DNA from: a virus
Taxonomy: Duplodnaviria; Heunggongvirae; Uroviricota; Caudoviricetes
IMG/VR virus record: IMGVR_UViG_3300001336_000003
Span: 1 to 64,000 of that record
Length of the DNA: 64,000 nucleotides
Direction: 5' to 3' (one strand)
Shown here: piece after piece, positions 3,516-63,326 of the stretch
Position numbering within the stretch: position 1 is the first letter of the stretch
Layout: each line of letters opens with the position of its first letter
The notes under the pieces: model-generated
Told to the model about the DNA's origin: nothing
What the model saw: the letters and a program-made list of their open reading frames with translations, nothing else
The model's database searches: none
Translations under genes and position numbers: made by a program

Positions 3516-4888
3516 TCCCATATAAATTTTGCGTTGCCACAATCCCATATTCTATCCCAATTATCATCCATCATATTTTCATATTCTGTCTTTAATGGAT
3601 CGTAATTTTCCAATATATCACACAATTTGTGCTTTTGAAACTTCACACGAGAAAATAGCGTAGTGGTATTTTTCTTCCAATACCAGTAATTTGGTTCTGT
3701 CATGCCCACATAGTTAAAACCGCACTTCAAGTATACATTACCATCGCCAAATCTAAGATCAGAAAACGTCACTATACTTTCAGGACGCACTTCTTTTATG
3801 AAGTGATTTATTAATTTTGATACGCCACCTACAACTGTGTATTCACTATGTGAAGTTATCCTTGAACACTCATATTCGTATTTTTTGCTAAAACGGTTTT
3901 TTCCAAAAGAAGCTACCATAAGTAAATCACCACCATTAAAAAGACCATAGTGATGGCTCGCACCAACTGATGAATGTAGATGGTGTTCTTTATGAAACTG
4001 CATAGCTAATCTAGAATCTATTTTAGCTATTTGAGTTTTTCTTGCCCCTATTTTTTTGGTGCTACCTACCAACTTTGAAACTAGATACTTTACTTTTTCC
4101 ATGTCATCTGATTCGAAAACTGTTATTAGTCTATACCCCTTTTCTTTACATTTCAAGTATTTTTGTTTGTGGTAATTTTTTTTCTTTCCGCTTGATGTTT
4201 CTGAATGCCAATATAAACCACAATATTCAATAGCGATTTTCTTGTCTAAGTTAACTATATCCAATTCAAATGGGGCTATTATAGATCTGTCGCACCCTAT
4301 CCACGTGTCGTTTGGAAATTTACCCTTCAAATAATCATAAAGGTCTATTTCTGCTTTGCTACGCCAAGGTGGATTGATAGGTTCTATTTTTATATCATTT
4401 GACAAAAGTTGATTTCTTATATGTGTTTTGGACACGTTAAGCTTTTCGGCTAATGTGATAATAGATTTTGTTCTGTCATATTCTTTGTCAAGAAATTCTT
4501 TAGTGAAATGTATGTCTTGATGTTGCTTTTGCTTCCCCAATTTGGTAGACTCTGAAAGACTTCTAACTTCTATGTTACATTCTTCTATCCATTCGTATAT
4601 AGTAGCTTGGCTCACGCTGAAATATGCAGATAGCGATTCAATTGTAGATTCAGAATATAGCTGTTCGAGTTGTTTTTTATCAGGTTTTATTCTTTTTTTG
4701 TGTCTGGAATTTGCTTCCGTGGAAGCCTGTTTATGACTTTTTCTTTTTATGCTATGGTCTATAAGCCATTTTCTTACGGTTGGGTTAGAAGTATCGTATA
4801 GATTCGCCAAAGAAGAGATTGTCATCCCTTCTTTGGCATAGATACTTTCTAATTCGGATTTTGGTGGTATTGGTATTTTTTTACTCAT
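3509..4888 (-). CDS. free-standing homing-endonuclease-like protein: N-terminal repeated HTH modules + Vsr/DUF559-like PD-(D/E)XK nuclease core (IAIEYCGLYWHSE)
   Basis: 459 aa; three HTH-like segments (ISSLANLYDTSNPTVRKWL, IESLSAYFSVSQATIYEWI, ITLAEKLNVSKTHIRNQL); motif DIVNLDKKIAIEYCGLYWH similar to DFYLPDFNIAVEVNGTFWH of ORF 62430..63227; sits where T4 has segD after gene 23. Confidence 0.55.
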   Translation of the reverse strand: MSKKIPIPPKSELESIYAKEGMTISSLANLYDTSNPTVRKWLIDHSIKRKSHKQASTEANSRHKKRIKPDKKQLEQLYSESTIESLSAYFSVSQATIYEWIEECNIEVRSLSESTKLGKQKQHQDIHFTKEFLDKEYDRTKSIITLAEKLNVSKTHIRNQLLSNDIKIEPINPPWRSKAEIDLYDYLKGKFPNDTWIGCDRSIIAPFELDIVNLDKKIAIEYCGLYWHSETSSGKKKNYHKQKYLKCKEKGYRLITVFESDDMEKVKYLVSKLVGSTKKIGARKTQIAKIDSRLAMQFHKEHHLHSSVGASHHYGLFNGGDLLMVASFGKNRFSKKYEYECSRITSHSEYTVVGGVSKLINHFIKEVRPESIVTFSDLRFGDGNVYLKCGFNYVGMTEPNYWYWKKNTTTLFSRVKFQKHKLCDILENYDPLKTEYENMMDDNWDRIWDCGNAKFIWEQ

Positions 4889-4907
4889 ACCAAGCTAACA
4901 CTCCCCA

Positions 4908-5156
4908 TTACATCATACCCAAAGCCGACATATACATTTCAAGAACTGCTTCTTCTTCTGCAATGTCATCACGATTACGCTTGCGAAGTGCAATCACTTT
5001 TTTCATCACTTTTGTGTCATATCCGCGTCCTTTGGCTTCTGCCATAACTTCTTTTTGTTGGTCTGTAATGTCTTGCTTTTCTGCTTGAAGTCTTTCCCAA
5101 CGTTCGATAAATTGACGAAGTTCATCGGCGGTCACATTGTAAGCATCATCATTCAT
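4908..5156 (-). CDS. GapR-like DUF2312 DNA-binding protein
   Basis: 82 aa; LRQFIERWERLQAEKQDITDQQKEVMAEAKGRGYDTKVMKKVIALRK..AVLEMYMSALGMM matches the DUF2312/GapR family pattern. Confidence 0.65.
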   Translation of the reverse strand: MNDDAYNVTADELRQFIERWERLQAEKQDITDQQKEVMAEAKGRGYDTKVMKKVIALRKRNRDDIAEEEAVLEMYMSALGMM

Positions 5157-54371: not shown

Positions 54372-56611
54372 GCCAACTCGCAGGCCCCGCCTGCACAGGC
54401 TTGGGCACCCATTAGATCTATATCTGTAAATCGTTTCGCTTCAAGTTCCAAAGCAAAATCAACATTATCTAGGGTATTTTGTATCTTTACCCAACGATGA
54501 AGAAGATGTACGGCCTTCAAGCAATATTCAGCTTTTTTCGTGTCACCATCAAAATAGTTTTCCGCGTAGTTTCTGAAACGACGAATCCATTCAGCACGTA
54601 AATCTGCTTTTTCTTTATCACCAAAATCGCTTTCCATTTGCGCAATCATTGTTGCATCCCATAGGTTGTTAAATCCTCTGGAAGCATCAACAATAAGTCC
54701 AGAAGCAAACATTGCGCCACGGCCATAAGTTTTGATGATTTCTTCTTCTGTCAATATCTCAGTGTTTGGTGCTTGGTTGAAGTCTTTATCACCAGTGGCA
54801 GATAGCAAACTTACACCAGCAAAATATTGACGATTTTCGAATAGATAATCTTCAACTTCATCCCATTGTTCAGGAAGAACTGAAATAGTATTTGACACAT
54901 TATGGCGAACTGTAGGGTCAACACACAATTCAACGTCTGTGCCATACTCTACCCAATTTTGTTGTATCAACTTGACTTTTTCCAATAGCTTGACGCCATA
55001 TAGGTCTTTTCTGAAAATTGACGTCTTAGGTGCAATAACAGGGAAAGAAATGACATAATCAGTCTTGTTTTGTGACCACACAGATTCTTCAACCATGTAT
55101 GGATTTCTTTCTTTGATAAGTTGTGCAACTTCCGAGTCTTTGTTCATTTGGACATTACGAATATACAAGGGCGAATGTTCACCATGAACACCAAAAGCAG
55201 TTTTAAGCAACACAGAAGCATTACCAGCAGGCTTCACACAAGTTGTTCTAGCTGCTGGATTGATACCGATTAGCTTTGCGACATGCTTATTGACTTTCTT
55301 GATAAGTTCCGCACCTTCTCTTAGAATTTGTTCATCCAAAAGAATGTGTGGGTTGTTCATCCATCCAGTAATGGAAACTCCCAAAAGTGCTTCACGGTCA
55401 AAGATTTTCTTTGTGGTTTCACCAACAAATTTGAAGTCGGTATAACCAGCTTGAAGTGTTCCAAGAATAGCTGCACTTCTACAAGCGTTTAGAAAATCCT
55501 GTCTTGTATTGGCTTCCGCGCCATTCATTTCCACAAGGTTACATCCCTGCCATCCAGAATGCTTTTCTTTATTTTCGTCAATGTGGACAGGATACTTACC
55601 AATTTCGACACATGGATTATATGTGTGTTCTGTGGATTCTGCGAATACGAAACCAGGCTCGCCAAATTGCTTAACAGAATTCATCAAATTTGCAAATGTT
55701 TCGCGGCTAGCAGTTTTACGAACAATCAAAGCAGAGTTGTTTGAACGACCTCTTTGTGGGTTTTTCAAATACCAATCACCCGTCTTAGCAGTCATCATTT
55801 CTTCATCTTCTGGCGAAAACAAGAAGATTGTAGCAGAACGACGAACACCGCCAGCAAGAACTGCATCTGCTAGGTGCATGGAAATATCATAGACGTGGAT
55901 TGATCTTAGTGTGTCGCCACCTTCAAGAATGATGCCTTGAATAAGGTGTTCGATTTTATCCAAAGCACGACGAAGTGGTTCTGGACCAGGTGCTTTGAAA
56001 CCACCAGAGATCAAGGCACCTCTTGGACGAATTTTGGATGTGTCAAAATAAACGCGACGGCCTTCATATTCAGGATGTTTGCCACCACCAATAAAATATG
56101 ACGACATTAGAACGTCAGCAGCAGTTGCCCATCCTTCAATGCTATCTTCGATAACATGGATTTTTGCTTGCTTGGTTCTGTTTTGGATTTTAGATAGTTT
56201 AGCAACATGGTGCTTTTGAACAGATACACCTGCACCAGCGCCACAAAGAAGAATGTAGAAAAATTCGCCAAAAAATTCATCGCGATCAGCATAAGATGAT
56301 GTGCAATTATACAATCTCATCTGATGCTTGATTAGTTGTTCCCCACCAAATTGAAGAGCCCTTTGCGCACCAAGAACGTGTTTTTGCTTATAGGCTTGTT
56401 CTACATCTTTAATCAATTCTTCCAATTCATCTGTCATCTTGTCTTTGTAAAAGTCACGGTGCATATCCATGACTCTGGAAACCGCTTCATTCCAAGTTTC
56501 GTATCTTTCTTTCTTATCATCCCATCTCGAATAACCTTCGAAAAATTTAGCATCCGACAACATATCTCTTGTGTCGCGATCCCCATTAAAGTGAATAACG
56601 TTATCTAGCAT
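54368..56611 (-). CDS. nrd: ribonucleotide reductase, monomeric class II (adenosylcobalamin-type)-like
   Basis: 747 aa; catalytic NPCVEIG (NxCxE), C-terminal redox tail ACAGGACELA; no adjacent nrdB. Confidence 0.75.
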   Translation of the reverse strand: MLDNVIHFNGDRDTRDMLSDAKFFEGYSRWDDKKERYETWNEAVSRVMDMHRDFYKDKMTDELEELIKDVEQAYKQKHVLGAQRALQFGGEQLIKHQMRLYNCTSSYADRDEFFGEFFYILLCGAGAGVSVQKHHVAKLSKIQNRTKQAKIHVIEDSIEGWATAADVLMSSYFIGGGKHPEYEGRRVYFDTSKIRPRGALISGGFKAPGPEPLRRALDKIEHLIQGIILEGGDTLRSIHVYDISMHLADAVLAGGVRRSATIFLFSPEDEEMMTAKTGDWYLKNPQRGRSNNSALIVRKTASRETFANLMNSVKQFGEPGFVFAESTEHTYNPCVEIGKYPVHIDENKEKHSGWQGCNLVEMNGAEANTRQDFLNACRSAAILGTLQAGYTDFKFVGETTKKIFDREALLGVSITGWMNNPHILLDEQILREGAELIKKVNKHVAKLIGINPAARTTCVKPAGNASVLLKTAFGVHGEHSPLYIRNVQMNKDSEVAQLIKERNPYMVEESVWSQNKTDYVISFPVIAPKTSIFRKDLYGVKLLEKVKLIQQNWVEYGTDVELCVDPTVRHNVSNTISVLPEQWDEVEDYLFENRQYFAGVSLLSATGDKDFNQAPNTEILTEEEIIKTYGRGAMFASGLIVDASRGFNNLWDATMIAQMESDFGDKEKADLRAEWIRRFRNYAENYFDGDTKKAEYCLKAVHLLHRWVKIQNTLDNVDFALELEAKRFTDIDLMGAQACAGGACELA

Positions 56612-56857
56612 TTCTACCTCTTCTTATTATTAAATACAAAGTCTAACCCCTAAATACACATGTAGGGGCACCTATTTTATCGTTCTTGGATTTTCTGTTG
56701 CCTTTTATGGCAGTAATGATATTTATAATATGACTTACCCCGAAAACACCATTATTTCACACATTTGAACAAAAATCAAACAGCCATTTGCATTTTCACG
56801 GTTTCGTGACACATATAGTTGTTTAGTCTCATTTTTGACACATCATCTAGTTTGAAC

Positions 56858-58525
56858 CTAAACTGCCATAGGTGCTTTAATTGTTGGGTGGCACTGATAA
56901 TTTTTAAGTGTAAACATATTTACCGTATTAAAATTGAATCCGTATGTCAAACCTTTAGACAAAACAAAGTCTTCTGATATTTCTAATGTTGGTAGAGGAT
57001 ATTCTTTTCTCGTAAGTTGTTCCCGAACCTGTTCAATATGATTATTATATATGTGTGCATCACCTATGGAATATACGAGTTCACCAACTTGCATATTAAC
57101 TTCTCTAGCCAAAATATGAATAAGAAGTGCATATGAAGCAATGTTGAAAGGCGCACCCAAAAATGCGTCATTTGATCTCATTGTTAACATCCCGCTTAAT
57201 TTGTTCTCTCTGACAATAAGTTGAAAGAAACAGTGGCATGGTGGTAGTGCTTGCATATCTATAACCGTAGGATTCCATGCTGACAATATGATTCTTCTTG
57301 ATTCGGGTTCGTTTTTTATTTGGTTTATTATATTTACGATTTGGTCGGCCACCACCTTTTTACGAAATACATGTCCATTAGAAGCTTGAATATATTTTAG
57401 ACTATACCCATTATAACTTTCACCTGTGTCTAACAAATAAGAAATCCTCGCCAGTGTCAAATCATCTATGCTATTGCATATGTCTGTTTTATACAGATAG
57501 TCTTTGTATGTATCATAGTGGAAAACTCTTATTTTTCTATGATGGTCTACTTGTTTATTGGCTATTGCCAAGTTCATCTTTTTTGGTAGAAATATGCAAG
57601 TGTGTTTAGAATAGATGTCAGAGCAATAGTAATCTTTATCCAATTCGTAGTCATTATTCATCTTAACCCATTCATAAAATCCTGGGATTTTATCTATGTC
57701 TAGTAAAAAATTCTTAAAATCCATCCAACTATCAGAAACACGAACACCCCTAGCCCCATAATTTCTATAACTTAGATGTTTTTTATTATAGCATCTATCT
57801 ATCATATGAATCCATAGTTTATATGCTTTCTTATAGTAAGATGGTTTATCACCTCTGAATGAATTGTTTGCCACCCCCTTAATCAAAGGGTTGAGGCAAA
57901 TCTTCTTAGGTATATTACTTCCTAAAATTTTAGTCAATTCACCCGTATCTAGTGCTTGCGCTATGTAAGTTTTTCGATATTTGTCGTTGCTGCACAGACC
58001 TAATATTTTAATGGGTCTACCAGATTTAGATGTAAATCTATAGCCCGTATATTTGTGTCCATCGCCGTAGTCTGCAAATTCAATAACTTCTTTAGCCGTA
58101 TCTATCGTTTCTTTGCGTTCTGGAACTTCTGTAATTTGTTCGCTGGCAGAATACCAATTTCTCCACATACTGCCATACACAGGACCAAGAAGCCCTATAG
58201 ATTCGATAGAATCATACCCTAAATTTTTTCCTTGGTGTATTAGATTATCTGTCCATATCGTTTGTTTACCTACCAATTCCTCACGGGGTTTGCCATATGT
58301 CAATTCAGCAAGTCGTCTTTCATCTGTGCCGCCTTCAAGAAACCATAACAATTCACCCACAACAGATTTCCATGCGAGTTTCTTTGTGGTGACGGCTGGA
58401 AACCCATCGTTCAAATCAAATCGCATCTGATAACCAAAAACAGAACGTGTTCCAACACCAGTTCTATCTTCAACATCAACACCATTTTCCAAGACGTGTC
58501 TAATCAAATCATGATATTGTTGCAT
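56858..58525 (-). CDS. td: thymidylate synthase ThyA carrying an in-frame about 265-aa insertion that contains an HNH-endonuclease motif
   Basis: N-terminus DRTGVGTRSVFGYQMRFDL..FPAVTTKK..LLWFL..LGPVYGSMWRNW and C-terminus SRRIILSAWNP..ALPPCH.FFQ..RSNDAFLGAPFNIASYALL..GDAHIY match ThyA; middle has KLWIHMIDRCYNKKHLSYRNYGARGVRVSDSWMDFKNF (phage HNH family). Confidence 0.85.
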   Translation of the reverse strand: MQQYHDLIRHVLENGVDVEDRTGVGTRSVFGYQMRFDLNDGFPAVTTKKLAWKSVVGELLWFLEGGTDERRLAELTYGKPREELVGKQTIWTDNLIHQGKNLGYDSIESIGLLGPVYGSMWRNWYSASEQITEVPERKETIDTAKEVIEFADYGDGHKYTGYRFTSKSGRPIKILGLCSNDKYRKTYIAQALDTGELTKILGSNIPKKICLNPLIKGVANNSFRGDKPSYYKKAYKLWIHMIDRCYNKKHLSYRNYGARGVRVSDSWMDFKNFLLDIDKIPGFYEWVKMNNDYELDKDYYCSDIYSKHTCIFLPKKMNLAIANKQVDHHRKIRVFHYDTYKDYLYKTDICNSIDDLTLARISYLLDTGESYNGYSLKYIQASNGHVFRKKVVADQIVNIINQIKNEPESRRIILSAWNPTVIDMQALPPCHCFFQLIVRENKLSGMLTMRSNDAFLGAPFNIASYALLIHILAREVNMQVGELVYSIGDAHIYNNHIEQVREQLTRKEYPLPTLEISEDFVLSKGLTYGFNFNTVNMFTLKNYQCHPTIKAPMAV

Positions 58526-58526
58526 T

Positions 58527-58877
58527 TTAACCCTTCTTCATTTTTTCGCGTATTTTCGTTGCACTAATTTCTTGTATTTCAGGTGGTAAATCTATATATT
58601 CCACGTCATATCCAACATCACGCCCATAGTATATCTTCGTGATATTAGGAACAGAAATAACATCATAATAACCTTCGAACTCATCTTTAAGGCTATTATC
58701 AATATTTTTCTTCACTTGTTCAAAATCGAATGGGTTTTTTTCGCTGATAGGCATATCGCGAACCATTATTAGAACTTGTCCAACTCTTTTCCAAGATTCG
58801 ACAAAAATTGCTCGGTGTCCATCGTGCCATGGTTGGAATCTTCCAAGCATTTGTGCAGTAGGTCTTTTGTAATCCAT
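58527..58877 (-). CDS. cytidylyltransferase-fold NMN/NaMN adenylyltransferase-like protein
   Basis: GRFQPWHDGH (HxGH) at N-terminus, 116 aa. Confidence 0.5.
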   Translation of the reverse strand: MDYKRPTAQMLGRFQPWHDGHRAIFVESWKRVGQVLIMVRDMPISEKNPFDFEQVKKNIDNSLKDEFEGYYDVISVPNITKIYYGRDVGYDVEYIDLPPEIQEISATKIREKMKKG

Positions 58878-59233
58878 TTCGTAATCCTCATTTCGTATTG
58901 TGTAGGTGGTTGAAATATTTTATTGGTATCCTCATATCTACCTTGGGGGATTGTATCCATCCAAATGGTATAATCTGCTTCAAAAACATATCGTGTCATA
59001 TCAGTAGGGCAAACAAAATCGCATATAACTACGCGACCTTCACCCTTTTCAAAATTAGCCAAATTGCGCATTCGTCTTGCTTGTCGCAATCTTGCATTTT
59101 CAGAAAATTCCCAATCATTAGCCATTTTCCGAACATCGTCTGCATCGAACCATGCACACTTTAAAATATCTTGAAGATCTTTTGCCAGCCATGTTTTACC
59201 AGAGCCAGGTAATCCCATGATTAGAATTTTCAT
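58769..59233 (-). CDS. P-loop kinase (candidate nucleoside/ribosylnicotinamide kinase)
   Basis: ILIMGLPGSGKTW Walker A; 3' end overlaps next gene by about 100 nt in another frame. Confidence 0.45.
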   Translation of the reverse strand: MKILIMGLPGSGKTWLAKDLQDILKCAWFDADDVRKMANDWEFSENARLRQARRMRNLANFEKGEGRVVICDFVCPTDMTRYVFEADYTIWMDTIPQGRYEDTNKIFQPPTQYEMRITKWITKDLLHKCLEDSNHGTMDTEQFLSNLGKELDKF

Positions 59234-59707
59234 TTATCGTCTCCTGATTTGAAATGTAAGTTCTTCATCTTCTTTCCAATATTCTATGACAGGAAATTTT
59301 GTGATGATATCTGATTCGACATATCTATCACACTTGAACTTCTTGTTAATAGTGGTCAGATATAGCTTGTCACAATATGGAATCGCTTGTTGATAAATGT
59401 CCGCACCACCAATAACCCAAATATGAAGTCCATCATAAAGTTCCTTGACATATTGTATAATTTCACCCATATCACCAGACATAGTAAAATCAGCATCTAT
59501 TACTTTGCTAGTCACGACAACATTTGTTCTTTTTGGTAGTGGTTTGCTACCAATGGATTCCCATGTAGTTCTACCCATCAAAACAACATGACCCATTGTA
59601 TTATCACGAAACCAATCCATATCGCGCTTGTTTTTTGGCCAAGGTAAGTTACCTTCATTACCAATACCAAAATCTAAATCACATGCTAAAATAGCATTTA
59701 CAGACAT
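59234..59707 (-). CDS. frd: dihydrofolate reductase
   Basis: ILACDLDFGIGNEGNLPW ... VLMGRTTWESIG ... IWVIGGADIY. Confidence 0.85.
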   Translation of the reverse strand: MSVNAILACDLDFGIGNEGNLPWPKNKRDMDWFRDNTMGHVVLMGRTTWESIGSKPLPKRTNVVVTSKVIDADFTMSGDMGEIIQYVKELYDGLHIWVIGGADIYQQAIPYCDKLYLTTINKKFKCDRYVESDIITKFPVIEYWKEDEELTFQIRRR

Positions 59708-61046: not shown

Positions 61047-63326
61047 TCAAGCATCATCCGAAAAGAAATTATCTAGCGTAGTCTTTTTTTGGACAGCTTC
61101 TATCCTTGCTTTCGCAATTTCAATATATTCTGGATCAAGTTCAATACCAATGAAGTCGAACCCTTCAAGTTTTGCGGCTTTGCCAGTCGAACCAGAACCC
61201 ATGAAAGGATCAAGAACAGTTCCATTAGGTGGAGTTACAAGTTTCACAAGATAGCGCATTAGTTCTGTTGGCTTCACCGTAGGATGATTATTTTTGGAAG
61301 GTATGAAAGGTCTATTTGCTCTTTCTGGAACCGCAGCACCTTCATGTTTCCATTCCTTGTCAGGAAGATTTTCCAAACCCTCATTGCGATCTTTCTTGGA
61401 AGTCTTGGCACAGTAAAAGAAACGGGCAGCGGAACCTTCGTCATTGTAATTGCTAGGTGATTGTGGTTTATCGCCATTAAACATGGAAGTATCTTTGTTG
61501 TCATACTCGTTTCCAGCATAAGAATATACACCTTTGTTATTACCAGAACCAGTTTTTGGAAACAACTCTGTCACTTCTTCACTACCATCATGAATGAGGT
61601 TGGCGGGGAAACGACCAACGCTGTCGTCCACCTTAGCCCGTTCGGTTATGCCTCCGTTGTGAAGCGCAGTACTCCCTGCGCAACCCCCGCTAGTTTTCTT
61701 CGTGCCGTTCAAATCAACTCTACTTTCATCAATATTGATGCCACCTGTGCCATACTTTAACACATTAGCAGCAACAGTATTTTCACTTAGTGGCTTTCTT
61801 GCAACAGTGATCGGTTCTAATGCGGGCTTTAGAGCAGTTCCCCAACCATTCCATTTTTTGGCTTCATCTGTAGCGGGTGCAGTTATTTGAATAACATTTT
61901 TTGCACTTTTGTCTTCTGAATTTCCAGTATATGCGTTTGGCCTAAATCCGTGTTCTGCATTAGTTTTAGAAATGTGAGCCATTCCGCCAGAGTTTGTTTT
62001 TGTCTCTGATATAATTTCGCGTTCTGCACCAGACATTTTATCAATAGCTTTACTAATATCCAATGACTTCGGAAATCCGCTTCCATAACCCCATCCCACC
62101 ATTCCATCACGACCAAATGTAGCATCAAAAAGCTTCATCTGTTCTGGAGTCAAAGATTCAAAAAGTTGTTGGGCTGTGGTATTAGTATCATATAGATATG
62201 TGACCATATCACGAATTTCAAAACCAGCATCTTCAATGTTGACTGCCATCCTATGTTGCGTCCTAGTGCCAGCAAATGCCAACAAATGACCGCCGGGCTT
62301 CAAGACTCGCAAACATTCTTGCCAAATTTCAGTAGTAGGGACGTCATAATCCCATTTTTTACCCATAAAACCACTGGAATTTGTATAAATATCAGATACA
62401 GATTTAAGTAAATTTTTAGGAACATAAAGATGCAAAAAATACTCAGAACTTGTCCCGTTTGCAGTATCCAATATGAAGCCGACCCTAACAGGCTGAAGCA
62501 CGGTAGACAAACTACTTGCAGCAAGGTTTGTTCTTACAATCTTAGGTCTGATAAAATTAGAAAAAGTGTTACTCTTGAGTGTGGTAATTGCGGCACTGGA
62601 ATAATCAGAAGCCCTAGTCAAATCAAAAGTAAGCACGGGCACATCTTCTGTTCCATTTTCTGTAAGAGTGAAGCTATGAGCAAAGGAATCATCCCCCATG
62701 TTATCACTACCCCATACAATATCAGGAACCCCATCCCTGAAGATAGGAAAAGGGAAATCCATTCCAGAATTTGGGAAACAAGAAGAAAAAATGGAACTGA
62801 TAGGCACACTAAAGAAACCATACGAAAATTGTCCGAAATTACCACTAAAAACATCGTCAGCGGTAAAATCAATAGAATTTCCAAAATCGAATATGAAGTT
62901 TCCGATAAACTTACTTCCATTGGCGTCAAATTTATCCCTCAATATGGTATCAGGGATATGAAAACTGGAAGATACTGTGCTTCTGTCGATTTCTATCTCC
63001 CTGACTTCAACATTGCCGTCGAAGTAAATGGGACTTTCTGGCATAGAGACCCTAGATTTTATGATAGGAATAGTCTCACACCTGCTCAAATCAGAACACA
63101 TACTAGATTTGAAAGAAAAGTCGCTATATTGGATTCTCTTAATATCACTCTCGTAGAAATTTGGGAGCATGATATTAAAACTTTTCCAGACAGCTTTATT
63201 GACCCTCTTATAAAGGTTATCGCCTAAACCATAAGGGGGATCTGTAACAATGCTATCCACACTGTTATCTGGTAATTCTTTCATCTTATCAAGGCAATCG
63301 CCAAGCATCAATTTAACTTCAGTCAT
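61047..63326 (-). CDS. large beta-class DNA methyltransferase whose ORF runs in frame through an antisense-inserted endonuclease cassette
   Basis: SVDSIVTDPPYGL (aa 24-34), then about 290 aa Ser/Phe-rich low-complexity region, then IWQECLRVLKPGGHLLAF, long TRD, LDPFMGSGSTGKAA; paralog of 59725..60408. Confidence 0.8.
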   Translation of the reverse strand: MTEVKLMLGDCLDKMKELPDNSVDSIVTDPPYGLGDNLYKRVNKAVWKSFNIMLPNFYESDIKRIQYSDFSFKSSMCSDLSRCETIPIIKSRVSMPESPIYFDGNVEVREIEIDRSTVSSSFHIPDTILRDKFDANGSKFIGNFIFDFGNSIDFTADDVFSGNFGQFSYGFFSVPISSIFSSCFPNSGMDFPFPIFRDGVPDIVWGSDNMGDDSFAHSFTLTENGTEDVPVLTFDLTRASDYSSAAITTLKSNTFSNFIRPKIVRTNLAASSLSTVLQPVRVGFILDTANGTSSEYFLHLYVPKNLLKSVSDIYTNSSGFMGKKWDYDVPTTEIWQECLRVLKPGGHLLAFAGTRTQHRMAVNIEDAGFEIRDMVTYLYDTNTTAQQLFESLTPEQMKLFDATFGRDGMVGWGYGSGFPKSLDISKAIDKMSGAEREIISETKTNSGGMAHISKTNAEHGFRPNAYTGNSEDKSAKNVIQITAPATDEAKKWNGWGTALKPALEPITVARKPLSENTVAANVLKYGTGGINIDESRVDLNGTKKTSGGCAGSTALHNGGITERAKVDDSVGRFPANLIHDGSEEVTELFPKTGSGNNKGVYSYAGNEYDNKDTSMFNGDKPQSPSNYNDEGSAARFFYCAKTSKKDRNEGLENLPDKEWKHEGAAVPERANRPFIPSKNNHPTVKPTELMRYLVKLVTPPNGTVLDPFMGSGSTGKAAKLEGFDFIGIELDPEYIEIAKARIEAVQKKTTLDNFFSDDA
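62384..62391 (+). promoter_or_regulatory. late promoter TATAAATA of the embedded endonuclease, located inside the methyltransferase ORF
   Basis: TTTGTATAAATATCAG...taggaacataaagATG. Confidence 0.55.
62430..63227 (+). CDS. Zn-ribbon + Vsr/DUF559-like PD-(D/E)XK endonuclease (homing-endonuclease-like), embedded antisense within the methyltransferase gene
   Basis: CPVC..CSKVC and CGNCG..CSIFC zinc ribbons; nuclease core RYCASVDFYLPDFNIAVEVNGTFWHRD ... LVEIWEHD. Confidence 0.75.
   Translation: MQKILRTCPVCSIQYEADPNRLKHGRQTTCSKVCSYNLRSDKIRKSVTLECGNCGTGIIRSPSQIKSKHGHIFCSIFCKSEAMSKGIIPHVITTPYNIRNPIPEDRKREIHSRIWETRRKNGTDRHTKETIRKLSEITTKNIVSGKINRISKIEYEVSDKLTSIGVKFIPQYGIRDMKTGRYCASVDFYLPDFNIAVEVNGTFWHRDPRFYDRNSLTPAQIRTHTRFERKVAILDSLNITLVEIWEHDIKTFPDSFIDPLIKVIA

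What the first reader, a model, noticed from the sequence alone, without database searches (positions are those of the whole stretch)
56858..58525. Thymidylate synthase with an in-frame insertion of about 265 aa carrying an HNH endonuclease motif, neither a canonical intein nor a T4-td-style intron
- **Location:** ThyA N- and C-terminal halves are intact. Between LGPVYGSMWRNW and ADQIVNIINQIKNEPESRRII sits a continuous in-frame segment (approximately 57350..58140).
- **Content:** the segment contains the phage HNH signature CYNKKHLSYRNYGARGVRVSDSW and two LDTGE-containing repeats.
- **Not a canonical intein:** there is no Cys/Ser at the N-junction, no HN at the end, and no Cys/Ser/Thr at +1.
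- **Not a T4 td-style intron:** T4 td carries a group I intron, but here 555 codons are stop-free and the insert sits in a different place.
- **Permissive site:** the position corresponds to the surface loop where L. casei and eukaryotic TS carry variable inserts.
- **Local duplication:** SASEQITEV before the insert resembles ADQIVNI after it, suggesting a short duplication at the insertion site.
- **Interpretation:** this looks like an endonuclease domain resident in a permissive loop of an essential enzyme.
Basis: partly seen in the sequence, partly recalled or inferred. Interest (0 to 1): 0.85.

Follow-up and report, generated by a model that had tools for sequence, protein, structure and literature searches.

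The report
Unspliced endonuclease module inside phage ThyA
A phage thymidylate synthase gene carries, in frame and with no sign of RNA or protein splicing, a complete homing-endonuclease-like module in a surface hairpin, and the same arrangement is found in well over a hundred diverged phage lineages and has moved between phages.

Summary
ORF 56858..58525 lies on the minus strand and encodes 555 stop-free codons. It is a ThyA whose two halves are separated by about 266 aa (aa 126-391, nt 57353..58150).

- **What the insert is:** a full copy of a very large phage "HNH endonuclease" family, which also occurs free-standing. It has an SH3-like module, a helical W..M..RCYN..YG.GV.V...W module, a beta-beta-alpha-Me-like module and a NUMOD-like helix-turn-helix. 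I-HmuI is the best structural match.
- **Not an intein or intron:** there is no Hint fold, no junction nucleophiles, and no group I ribozyme. A positive control was detected under the same settings.
- **Distribution:** 97 of the 120 best database hits, and 67 further 50%-identity clusters, carry the insert at the same site and in frame. ThyA catalytic residues are invariant in them.
- **Structure:** AlphaFold2 models the whole chimera confidently (pLDDT 93, pTM 0.90).
- **Mobility:** in Asteriusvirus phages the insert arrived together with a block of foreign thyA flank. That mosaic is typical of homing.

The most likely reading is a mobile endonuclease module that survives in thyA by being tolerated as an internal domain rather than spliced out.

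- **Caveats:** the canonical catalytic His appears to be replaced by Lys. Nuclease activity and absence of splicing are inferred, not shown.
- **Precedent:** the closest is the "ShiLan" insertion in actinophage methylases.

The parts
56858..58525 (-). Complete ORF, 555 aa plus stop: ThyA with an internal endonuclease-like module. Predicted size is about 64-65 kDa if nothing is removed.
   Evidence: The AF2 model has pLDDT 93 and pTM 0.90.
58151..58525 (-). ThyA N-terminal part (aa 1-125), ending in ..LGPVYGSMWRNWY.
   Evidence: It aligns to E. coli TS 1-101 and to Pfam PF00303. R21, T22, W91 and Y117 are invariant.
57353..58150 (-). In-frame insert (aa 126-391, boundaries +/- about 3 aa). It is a complete copy of a phage I-HmuI-like 'HNH endonuclease' family plus a two-stranded stalk.
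   Evidence: Alignment; phrog_2081 E 2.4e-36; profile search; insert-only AF2 pLDDT 90.
58121..58135 (-). Stalk strand 1 (aa 131-135, ITEVP; family consensus I/V-V/E-E-V/I). It is followed by a linker with a low-confidence stretch at aa 141-146. This segment is specific to ThyA-embedded copies.
   Evidence: DSSP strand E131-135. Free-standing homologues start at profile position ~36.
57911..58045 (-). SH3/Tudor-like beta module (aa ~161-205; ..YTGYRFTSKSGRPIKILGL...YIAQALDTGELTKIL), presumed to bind DNA. It is often repeated in tandem in free-standing relatives.
57656..57835 (-). Helical family-signature module (aa ~231-290): YKLWIHMIDRCYNKKHLSYRNYGARGVRVSDSWMDFKNFLLDI.
   Evidence: W238, M241, R244, C245, Y246, Y256, G260, V263, W267, F273 and D276 are each kept in 82-99 of 99 embedded copies.
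57560..57655 (-). Beta-beta-alpha-Me-like ('HNH'-like) module (aa ~291-322): YELDKDYYCSDIYSKHTCIFLPKKMNLAI. The D296-K297-D298 ... N318 residues are conserved. Lys sits where canonical HNH enzymes have the catalytic His; this equivalence is by inspection.
57386..57544 (-). NUMOD-like helix-turn-helix module (aa ~328-380; ..RVFHYDTYKDYLYKTDICNSIDDLTLARISYLLDTGESYNGYSLKYI). It is missing in the ~218-aa insert variants.
   Evidence: hhalign against the I-HmuI C-terminus gives E 1.8e-4. The profile against PDB hits only 1u3e. PF22083 is found in P0063, P0121 and P0122. Short variants are seen.
57359..57373 (-). Stalk strand 2 (aa 385-389, HVFRK), leading back into ThyA. R388 is kept in 92 of 99 copies.
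   Evidence: DSSP E385-389; column counts.
56858..57352 (-). ThyA C-terminal part (aa 392-555 plus stop): V-A-DQIVNIINQIKNEPESRRII... with the catalytic Cys430.
   Evidence: It aligns to E. coli TS 110-264. R410, R411, C430, H431, R450, D453, H491 and Y493 are invariant in 101 sequences.

Best explanation
The gene encodes one polypeptide. A complete homing-endonuclease-type module is spliced into the DNA, but not out of the RNA or protein, at the tip of a surface beta-hairpin of thymidylate synthase.

**Module order.** SH3-like DNA-binding module, then the helical signature module, then a beta-beta-alpha-Me-like module, then a NUMOD-like helix-turn-helix. This is the I-HmuI type.

**How ThyA tolerates it.** Two extra beta-strands (aa 131-135 and 385-389) form a stalk that holds the module away from the enzyme. 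ThyA can therefore fold and work with the module in place.

**How the element spreads.** It is selfish in origin and still mobile at the DNA level.
- In a mixed infection, the module (or a related enzyme acting in trans) cuts or nicks insert-free thyA alleles near this site.
- Recombinational repair then copies the insert together with some flanking thyA sequence.

**What is shown.**
- The reading frame is continuous here and at the same site in about 100 diverged relatives.
- The insert is homologous to free-standing endonuclease-family genes.
- ThyA catalytic residues, and the core residues of the module, are conserved.
- Detectable intein and intron features are absent.
- Mosaic thyA genes occur in related Asteriusvirus phages.

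**What is inferred.**
- The chimera is not processed.
- ThyA is active with the insert in place.
- The module is an active nuclease that targets thyA.
For: **Frame and site.**
- The ORF has 555 codons without a stop.
- 97 of the 120 best hits carry 166-282 extra residues at the identical site as single ORFs, at only 21-34% insert identity to this one.
- A further 67 clusters at 50% identity are ThyA-embedded among the top 142 new hits of an exhaustive profile search.
- In the UE-S1/KP13-7 pair, differences by codon position in the insert are 30/11/63, as expected for coding sequence in this frame.

**Host enzyme kept.** R21, R410/R411, C430, H431, R450, D453, H491 and Y493 are invariant over 101 sequences.

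**Fold.**
- The full-length AF2 model has pLDDT 93 and pTM 0.90, with only aa 141-146 disordered.

**Identity of the insert.**
- PHROG 2081 'HNH endonuclease' matches with E 2.4e-36.
- Free-standing homologues of 225-255 aa have the same module order.
- The C-terminal HTH matches I-HmuI by hhalign at E 1.8e-4.

**Module under selection.** D296, K297, D298, N318 and the helical-module residues are kept in 82-99 of 99 embedded copies.

**Selfish behaviour of the family.**
- One free-standing member sits between the two halves of a split nrdD.
- Another lies directly upstream of thyA in Bacillus phage LY2.

**Mobility of the embedded form.**
- UE-S1 thyA is 95-98% identical to insert-free 121Q thyA over nt 1-240 and 1388-1554.
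- Across the flanks next to the insert it is only ~50-65% identical to 121Q. There it is 85-98% identical to the thyA of the Alcyoneusvirus KP13-7.
- ph0011 carries a different insert variant with different breakpoints.
- When ranked by ThyA identity, insert-bearing and insert-free ThyAs are interleaved, and insert identity does not follow ThyA identity.

**No splicing apparatus.** See, with the positive control.
Against: - **Nothing is experimental.** Neither the RNA nor the protein has been sized.
- **Catalytic His missing.** The residue at the position of the canonical HNH general-base His appears to be Lys (LDKD versus the VDHKD of I-HmuI). This equivalence is by inspection only, because hhalign aligned only the C-terminal HTH. 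The module could therefore be a nickase with unusual chemistry, or catalytically dead.
- **Mobility shown only in relatives.** It is shown for Asteriusvirus relatives and not for this phage. The nearest insert-bearing relative of the window gene is only 48% identical overall.
- **Mosaic is not specific to homing.** The mosaic pattern could also arise from ordinary recombination without a site-specific cut.
- **Ascertainment bias.** Protein databases list only uninterrupted ORFs, so interrupted copies would be under-counted.
- **Monomer model only.** An AF2 monomer model cannot show that the ThyA dimer and active site are unperturbed.
Confidence: 0.65

Rival explanations
1. Domesticated domain. 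The module descends from a homing endonuclease but no longer moves. It is kept because it gives ThyA a new DNA-linked function. Examples would be tethering dTMP synthesis to replicating DNA, regulation, or attacking the DNA of competing phages. In this reading it is inherited mostly vertically.
For: - The catalytic His appears to be replaced by Lys, while DNA-binding modules are kept.
- In a rough NJ tree, 126 of 165 embedded cores fall in one clade and only about 7 state changes are needed. This suggests few origins and a long association with thyA.
- The stalk strands are specific to embedded copies.
- The chimera is modelled as one confident structure (pTM 0.90).
Against: - The distribution is patchy among very close relatives. 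Most Asteriusvirus phages lack the insert, while UE-S1 and ph0011 have two different variants.
- Those two variants sit in mosaic thyA genes.
- Partially deleted variants exist with 166-218 aa.
- Insert-free and insert-bearing ThyAs are interleaved by ThyA identity.
- All of this looks like a gain, decay and loss cycle rather than a fixed functional domain.
Confidence: 0.17
2. The insert is removed from the protein after translation. This could be by an unrecognised self-splicing chemistry that does not use a Hint fold, or by proteolysis followed by association of the two ThyA halves.
For: - An in-frame, stop-free insert at a fixed site in a conserved enzyme is what inteins look like.
- HNH-type endonucleases are known inside some inteins (bioRxiv 10.1101/2025.01.02.630785).
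- Split but functional enzymes exist. The nrdD in L007 is split by a member of this same family.
Against: - No intein or Hint family is found at E up to 10.
- No Cys/Ser/Thr is conserved at either junction, and there is no terminal His-Asn. The residues after the insert are [VIF]-D-Q.
- The whole insert is accounted for by the modules of free-standing relatives plus two stalk strands, leaving no room for a splicing domain.
Confidence: 0.07
3. The insert is an RNA intron (group I or other) whose endonuclease ORF happens to be in frame with both exons. It would be spliced out of the mRNA.
For: - thyA is a classic home of phage group I introns (T4 td, Bacillus beta22). Phage LY2 has one in this same gene (PMC4528723).
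- Rfam's group I model is weak on ORF-containing introns. It was missed in a larger multi-locus scan.
Against: - No RF00028 match is found in or around the insert at E up to 10, in a 3.5-kb scan and in a 1.1-kb scan.
- A 1.35-kb scan of LY2 finds both intron halves, at E 4e-9 and 1.6e-6.
- An intron has no need to keep the frame across its 3' end. Yet about 100 relatives at 21-34% insert identity, with many length differences, all do.
- Protein-level conservation and the third-position bias run through the whole insert. No non-coding core of about 200 nt is left over.
Confidence: 0.04
4. The thyA gene is simply disrupted. The insert has killed the enzyme and the phage relies on the host ThyA.
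For: Phage thyA is generally dispensable when the host enzyme is present (general knowledge of T4 td).
Against: - All ThyA catalytic residues are invariant in insert-bearing proteins that are only 55-68% identical in their ThyA parts.
- Synonymous changes dominate in the flanks, at 43:13 and 50:15 codons.
- The ORF stays intact in about 100 lineages.
Confidence: 0.04

Closest known systems
I-HmuI (HNH homing endonuclease of the Bacillus phage SPO1 DNA polymerase intron; PDB 1u3e)
   Same: - It has the same order of a beta-beta-alpha-Me nuclease region followed by a NUMOD-like helix-turn-helix.
- The HTH is also matched by sequence profile.
   Different: - I-HmuI is encoded as a separate ORF inside a self-splicing group I intron and has the canonical catalytic His.
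- The module here is translated as an internal part of the host enzyme.
- It has extra SH3-like and helical modules.
- It appears to have Lys at the His position.
- Sequence identity is only 11-19%.
'ShiLan domain' and related hidden-HNH insertions in actinophage DNA methylases (Gosselin et al. 2023, PMC9957025; Arsenault, Gosselin & Gogarten 2025, PMC11855218)
   Same: - Both are stop-free, in-frame insertions at a fixed site in a phage enzyme.
- Both have a disjunct distribution and signs of horizontal spread.
- Neither has a detectable intein or intron.
- In both the proposal is that the insert stays in the protein as a tolerated loop.
- A related free-standing endonuclease sits upstream of the target gene in some phages.
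   Different: - There the endonuclease is read in a different frame, and the in-frame product is poorly structured.
- Here the endonuclease is in the same frame as ThyA, folds with high confidence and is part of the chimera.
- The host gene, the endonuclease family and the host phages are all different.
- The number of lineages here is far larger.
Free-standing HNH endonuclease MobE, which splits nrdA in Aeromonas phage Aeh1 and promotes trans-homing in T4
   Same: - An HNH-family homing endonuclease gene sits inside or next to a nucleotide-metabolism gene without any splicing element.
- The host function is retained.
- A free-standing member of the present family splits nrdD in the same way.
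- The T4 mobE work is in PMC2790892. The Aeh1 case is from my own knowledge (Friedrich et al. 2007).
   Different: MobE has its own start and stop codons, and the host gene becomes two polypeptides. Here there is one continuous polypeptide.
Inteins, including those with HNH endonuclease domains
   Same: - Both are in-frame insertions at a conserved site of a conserved enzyme.
- Both carry a homing endonuclease.
- Both are mobile by homing with co-conversion of flanks.
   Different: There is no Hint fold, no N-terminal nucleophile, no C-terminal Asn and no +1 Cys/Ser/Thr.
Group I introns of phage thyA/td (T4 td with I-TevI; Bacillus beta22, Bobb, LY2)
   Same: They share the same host gene and carry a mobile endonuclease.
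   Different: - The site is different..MR|S.D.., which corresponds to aa ~450 here.
- A ribozyme core is detectable there but not here.
- The intron ORF is not in frame with both exons.
Natural loop insertions of thymidylate synthases (first eukaryotic insert; L. casei small-domain insert)
   Same: The site between E. coli W101 and D110 is where eukaryotic TS has its first extra loop. I recall this from the human TS sequence and did not test it here. Insert-free phage ThyAs vary from 2 to 35 residues at this site.
   Different: Those inserts are 8-50 residues long with no domain of their own. As I recall it, the L. casei insert lies just upstream, before GDLG.

Membership tests
Thymidylate synthase ThyA (PF00303) | Profile match above the curated cut-off over the whole domain | tested here: met
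   PF00303 matches with E 2.7e-91 and 305.9 bits against a cut-off of 24.3, in two stretches that together cover the profile. phrog_160 matches with E 6.8e-103.
Thymidylate synthase ThyA (PF00303) | Catalytic Cys and the Arg/His/Asp/Tyr residues that bind dUMP and folate | tested here: met
   R21, R410, R411, C430, H431, R450, D453, H491 and Y493 are invariant in 101 aligned sequences, including this one.
Thymidylate synthase ThyA (PF00303) | ThyA fold | tested here: met
   [not shown]
Thymidylate synthase ThyA (PF00303) | Enzymatic activity with the insert in place | not testable with these tools
   This needs complementation of a thyA-deficient host or an enzyme assay.
Intein (Hint-domain protein-splicing element) | Hint fold / splicing blocks A, B, F, G | tested here: not met
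   [not shown]
Intein (Hint-domain protein-splicing element) | Cys/Ser at intein position 1 (or a class 2/3 substitute), and Cys/Ser/Thr at +1 of the C-extein | tested here: not met
   No column from aa 114-137 or 376-400 has a conserved Cys/Ser/Thr. The best is 41 of 99 at aa 126. The residues after the insert are [VIF]-D/N-Q-I.
Intein (Hint-domain protein-splicing element) | C-terminal (His-)Asn | tested here: not met
   The last insert columns are R388 (92/99), then K/Y/Q, K/Q, L/F, V/F/Y, I/V. There is no conserved Asn or His.
Group I intron | Conserved ribozyme core (Rfam RF00028) | tested here: not met
   No match at E up to 10 in window 56000-59500 or 57200-58300. In the positive control, the LY2 thyA intron halves are found at E 4e-9 and 1.6e-6. 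A larger multi-locus scan missed the control, so the test has limited power.
Group I intron | Excision from the transcript | not testable with these tools
   This needs RT-PCR or RNA-seq.
HNH / beta-beta-alpha-Me homing endonuclease, I-HmuI type | Beta-beta-alpha-Me fold with co-linear DNA-binding modules | tested here: met
   [not shown]
HNH / beta-beta-alpha-Me homing endonuclease, I-HmuI type | NUMOD-like helix-turn-helix (PF22083) | tested here: inconclusive
   PF22083 passes its threshold in relatives: the P0063 insert and P0122. The family profile aligns to the I-HmuI HTH at E 1.8e-4. The window protein alone gives no Pfam hit.
HNH / beta-beta-alpha-Me homing endonuclease, I-HmuI type | Catalytic His (general base) and metal-binding Asn | tested here: inconclusive
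   N318 is kept in 91 of 99 copies and D296-K297-D298 in 95-97 of 99. By inspection, Lys occupies the His position (LDKD versus VDHKD). No profile alignment of this region to a solved HNH enzyme was obtained, and no Pfam HNH family matches.
HNH / beta-beta-alpha-Me homing endonuclease, I-HmuI type | Site-specific DNA cleavage and preferential inheritance | not testable with these tools
   There is only indirect evidence: mosaic thyA genes in UE-S1 and ph0011 versus 121Q, and family members splitting nrdD or lying next to thyA.
Non-splicing in-frame insertion elements of phage genes (ShiLan type, PMC11855218) | Stop-free in-frame insertion at a fixed site, with no detectable intein or intron and a disjunct distribution | tested here: met
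Non-splicing in-frame insertion elements of phage genes (ShiLan type, PMC11855218) | Endonuclease encoded in another frame or strand than the host gene | tested here: not met
   Here the endonuclease-like module is read in the host frame. The neighbouring methylase insert in this window does have an antisense endonuclease ORF.

The most novel reading that the evidence does not exclude
This would be a third way for a homing endonuclease to live inside a conserved gene, using neither RNA splicing nor protein splicing. The endonuclease is expressed as a folded internal domain of an enzyme that stays active, held on a purpose-built two-strand stalk.

The arrangement would be old, widespread (well over 150 clusters at 50% identity) and still spreading between phages. 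Because ThyA is an obligate dimer, the chimera would carry two copies of a module whose closest solved relative is a nickase. The host enzyme might therefore supply the dimerisation needed for a double-strand cut.
Probability: 0.5. Interest if true: 0.8.

Novelty: new variant of a known kind. Interest (0 to 1): 0.7.

Why it matters
Textbook accounts say that a homing endonuclease gene can sit inside an important gene only if it is carried by a self-splicing intron or intein, or if it splits the gene into pieces.

**How this case differs.** The endonuclease seems simply to be tolerated as an extra domain. The case comes with large, diverged sequence support, a confident structure model and natural insert-plus/insert-minus phage pairs (UE-S1 or ph0011 versus 121Q). 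Those pairs make it directly testable.

**What it adds to the precedent.** It extends the recently described 'ShiLan' type of non-splicing insertion from a dispensable methylase with an out-of-frame nuclease to a catalytic enzyme with an in-frame, folded nuclease module.

**Practical consequences.**
- It marks a permissive insertion site in ThyA for protein engineering.
- It warns that such genes are mis-annotated. In the public records they appear as 'hypothetical protein', 'HNH endonuclease' or plain 'thymidylate synthase'.

Tried and rejected
- **megablast against phages:** the gene gave no match, so there is no close cultured relative.
- **Word-indexed protein search with the insert alone:** it returned only 3 hits and missed even the 99% identical protein. 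The exhaustive profile search was needed.
- **Pfam, NCBIfam and PDB sequence searches with the insert alone:** nothing usable came back.
- **hhalign of the insert profile against I-HmuI:** only the C-terminal HTH aligned. The catalytic-residue equivalence therefore rests on inspection.
- **Multi-locus Rfam scan:** it missed the known LY2 intron. I repeated the scans on short stretches, with LY2 as the positive control.
- **Is LY2's free-standing copy the closest relative of the embedded inserts?** It is not. It groups with other free-standing copies, so its position next to thyA may be coincidence.
- **Target-site duplication and 'LDTGE repeat' ideas:** rejected.
- **GC content:** the insert is at 32-34%, against 33-40% in the flanks. 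This is not informative.
- **Model coordinates:** I could not measure how far the module sits from the active site or the dimer interface.
- **Literature:** searches found no description of this ThyA insert.
Full report
**1. What is in the sequence**

The reported coordinates hold one ORF on the minus strand, 56858..58525. It starts with ATG and has 555 codons with no stop.

- Pfam finds only thymidylate synthase (PF00303, E 2.7e-91), and it matches in two stretches.
- Solved ThyA chains align to aa 1-~125 and aa ~392-555. E. coli TS residues 1-101 and 110-264 flank the gap.
- I aligned the protein with the 120 best hits from the 5.8-billion-protein collection and with E. coli ThyA. The extra segment comes out as aa ~126-391, which is nt 57353..58150.
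- The length of this site is bimodal. In 23 sequences it holds 2-35 residues, and in 97 it holds 166-282.

The gene lies in a nucleotide-metabolism block. Its neighbours are a class II-like ribonucleotide reductase, DHFR, a kinase and DNA methylases.

**2. What the insert is**

PHROGs match aa 158-396 to family 2081, 'HNH endonuclease' (E 2.4e-36). Pfam, NCBIfam and PDB sequence searches with the insert alone find nothing.

I built a profile from 25 inserts plus two free-standing relatives and searched 1.84 billion representative proteins.
- It finds 102,206 proteins at E <= 1e-3 and 1,460 at E <= 1e-30.
- Of the top 142 new representatives, 67 are ThyA-embedded. In these the match lies at about aa 105-395 of proteins 520-590 aa long.
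- The rest are free-standing proteins of 225-255 aa, or longer free-standing forms with tandem copies of the N-terminal beta module.

Free-standing members such as P0121 and P0122 have the same order of modules as the insert:
- an SH3-like beta module;
- a helical module with the signature W..M..RCYN..H..Y..YG.GV.V...W..F.NF;
- an 'LDKD...YS..TC.F.....N' stretch;
- a C-terminal helix-turn-helix that Pfam calls I-HmuI_NUMOD-like.

The embedded copies have two extra pieces, about 35 residues in front and about 12 behind.

**Structure.**
- AlphaFold2 models the whole 555-aa protein with pLDDT 93 and pTM 0.90. Only aa 141-146 are disordered.
- Strands 131-135 and 385-389 flank the module.
- The insert alone gives pLDDT 90.
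- At sequence-profile level only the C-terminal helix-turn-helix aligns to I-HmuI (E 1.8e-4 by hhalign; E 0.097 as the sole PDB hit).

**3. Is it removed?**

*Intein.*
- No Hint or intein family is matched at E up to 10.
- No Hint fold appears in any structure search.
- In 99 insert-bearing sequences no column near either junction has a conserved Cys/Ser/Thr, His or Asn. The residues that follow the insert are [VIF]-D/N-Q-I.
- The modules of free-standing relatives plus the two stalk strands account for the entire insert. There is no room for a splicing domain.

*Group I intron.*
- Rfam finds nothing in the insert at E up to 10, in a 3.5-kb scan and in a 1.1-kb scan.
- As a control I used Bacillus phage LY2, whose thyA is interrupted at the T4-td-type site by a GIY-YIG-carrying intron. 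A short scan finds both ribozyme halves (E 4e-9 and 1.6e-6).
- A larger scan missed the control, so this test is useful but not strong.
- The stronger argument is the reading frame. About 100 relatives whose inserts are only 21-34% identical to this one, with many length differences, all remain in frame with both ThyA halves.
- In the UE-S1/KP13-7 pair, substitutions in the insert fall 30/11/63 on codon positions 1/2/3.
- Protein databases favour intact ORFs, so some ascertainment bias remains.

**4. Is ThyA still an enzyme, and is the module still something?**

- **ThyA:** the catalytic and substrate-binding residues (R21, R410, R411, C430, H431, R450, D453, H491, Y493) are invariant across 101 sequences. 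The ThyA parts of those sequences are 55-68% identical to this one.
- **The module:**
  - W238, R244, C245, W267, F273, D296, K297, D298, Y305 and N318 are each kept in 91-99 of 99 embedded copies. The module is therefore under selection too, although it evolves faster than its host.
  - By inspection, LDKD lines up with the VDHKD of I-HmuI. Lys then sits at the position of the general-base His, and N318 at that of the metal-binding Asn. I could not confirm this with a profile alignment, so nuclease activity is an open point.

**5. Does it move?**

*Distribution among cultured phages.* Only 8 of 4,343 records with a ThyA match have the full-length form. They belong to different groups:
- Asteriusvirus UE-S1 and ph0011;
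- Alcyoneusvirus KP13-7;
- Klebsiella phage phiKp_21;
- Bacillus phage 015DV002.

A tblastn search with the insert alone also hits the annotated thyA of Bacillus phage Kioshi.

*Mosaic thyA genes.* Most Asteriusvirus phages, such as 121Q, lack the insert. I aligned the thyA DNA of UE-S1, 121Q, ph0011 and KP13-7.
- UE-S1 is 95-98% identical to 121Q over nt 1-240 and nt 1388-1554.
- In the ThyA-coding flanks next to the insert it is only about 50-65% identical to 121Q. These flanks run roughly 60-90 nt upstream and 250-300 nt downstream of the insert.
- Over that same stretch it is 85-98% identical to KP13-7.
- ph0011 has a different insert variant and different breakpoints.

This is the pattern left by homing with co-conversion of flanks. 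Ordinary recombination could also produce it.

*Other signs of turnover.*
- Ranked by ThyA identity to the window protein, insert-free and insert-bearing ThyAs are interleaved. Insert identity does not follow ThyA identity.
- Shorter inserts of 166-218 aa lack the helix-turn-helix or other parts.
- The 35-aa loop of 121Q aligns to both ends of the insert profile. These look like decay products, but the evidence is weak.
- A rough NJ tree of 241 module cores puts 126 of 165 embedded copies in one clade and needs about 7 changes of state. That suggests few origins.

*Behaviour of the family elsewhere.* One free-standing member sits between the two halves of a split nrdD. Another sits directly upstream of thyA in LY2, although that copy is not specially related to the embedded ones.

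**6. Interpretation**

The best-supported reading is a homing-endonuclease-type element that persists inside thyA by being tolerated as an internal domain on a two-strand stalk, at a hairpin that is naturally variable in length.

- **Shown:** the anatomy, the homology, the conservation, the absence of detectable splicing features, and mosaicism in relatives.
- **Inferred:** that the chimera is not processed, that ThyA works with it, and that the module cuts insert-free thyA.

Rival readings:
- The main rival is a domesticated DNA-binding or nuclease domain that no longer moves.
- Protein-level removal, RNA splicing and a dead gene are much less likely.

**7. Comparison with what is known**

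Searches of the paper library found no description of this ThyA insert.

- **Closest precedent:** the 'ShiLan domain' and related insertions in actinophage DNA methylases.
  - These are stop-free, in-frame, non-splicing, horizontally spreading insertions whose HNH endonuclease is hidden in another frame.
  - In some phages a related free-standing endonuclease lies upstream of the target gene (PMC11855218 and PMC9957025).
- **How the present case differs:**
  - The nuclease module is in the host frame.
  - It is confidently folded.
  - The host is a catalytic enzyme.
  - The family is very large.
- **Other relatives in kind:**
  - MobE-type free-standing endonucleases that split ribonucleotide reductase genes.
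  - HNH-containing inteins.
  - The thyA group I introns.

I therefore rate it as a new variant of a known kind.

**8. Seen in passing**

The 759-aa DNA methylase at 61047..63326, about 2.5 kb away, has a stop-free, Ser-rich insert of ~285 aa immediately after its DPPYGLG motif. A 265-aa antisense ORF (62430..63227) covers nearly the whole insert and matches endonuclease families. This looks like a ShiLan-type element in the same genome. It suggests that non-spliced endonuclease insertions are not a one-off in this phage.

Noticed in passing
window 61047..63326 (-), insert about 62370..63221; antisense ORF 62430..63227 (+): A 759-aa N6/N4 DNA methylase has a stop-free, Ser-rich, in-frame insert of ~285 aa right after motif DPPYGLG. 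A 265-aa ORF on the opposite strand spans almost the whole insert. It matches phrog_559 'HNH endonuclease' (E 2.4e-15) and, weakly, Vsr and PvuRts1I-N. No intein family is found. It resembles the ShiLan-type non-splicing insertion elements of actinophage methylases.
   Followed up: partly
window 58527..58877 (-) and 58769..59233 (-): Two overlapping ORFs, just upstream of thyA on the coding strand, match the C-terminal and N-terminal halves of one PHROG kinase family (phrog_10255). This could be a frameshifted or split gene, a programmed frameshift, or a sequencing error.
   Followed up: no
L005 (Bacillus phage vB_BceH_LY2) 1480-2226, 2539-3105, 3093-4186, 4234-4554: A free-standing 248-aa member of the insert family lies directly upstream of an insert-free thyA. 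That thyA carries a GIY-YIG group I intron at the T4-td-type site. The free-standing copy is not specially close to the embedded ones.
   Followed up: partly
L007 (metagenome contig DRR403981_366) 3960-4829, 5001-5747, 5961-7064: The free-standing homologue P0121 sits between two ORFs that are the N- and C-terminal parts of the anaerobic ribonucleotide reductase NrdD. This is a gene-in-pieces arrangement made by the same endonuclease family.
   Followed up: no
L002 (Escherichia phage 121Q) thyA 4001-4930, ThyA aa ~118-152: The insert-free 121Q ThyA has a 35-aa loop at the insertion site. The loop aligns to both ends (the stalk) of the insert profile. It may be the scar of a lost endonuclease module, analogous to a mini-intein. 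The support is weak.
   Followed up: partly
P0038, P0042, P0056, P0066, P0076, P0079, P0080, P0086, P0104, P0108, P0111 (proteins): A set of ThyAs carries shortened inserts of 166-218 aa. Those displayed lack the helix-turn-helix module or other parts. This is consistent with stepwise decay of the element.
   Followed up: no
P0124, P0154, P0209, P0214 and others (proteins): Long free-standing relatives combine one or two copies of the module with repeated segments that look AP2-like to me (..Y.GV....G.Y.V.I......IG.F....AA..YN..). Others carry up to six tandem SH3-like repeats. The family is very large, with 102,206 representatives at E <= 1e-3, and I found no experimental study of it.
   Followed up: no
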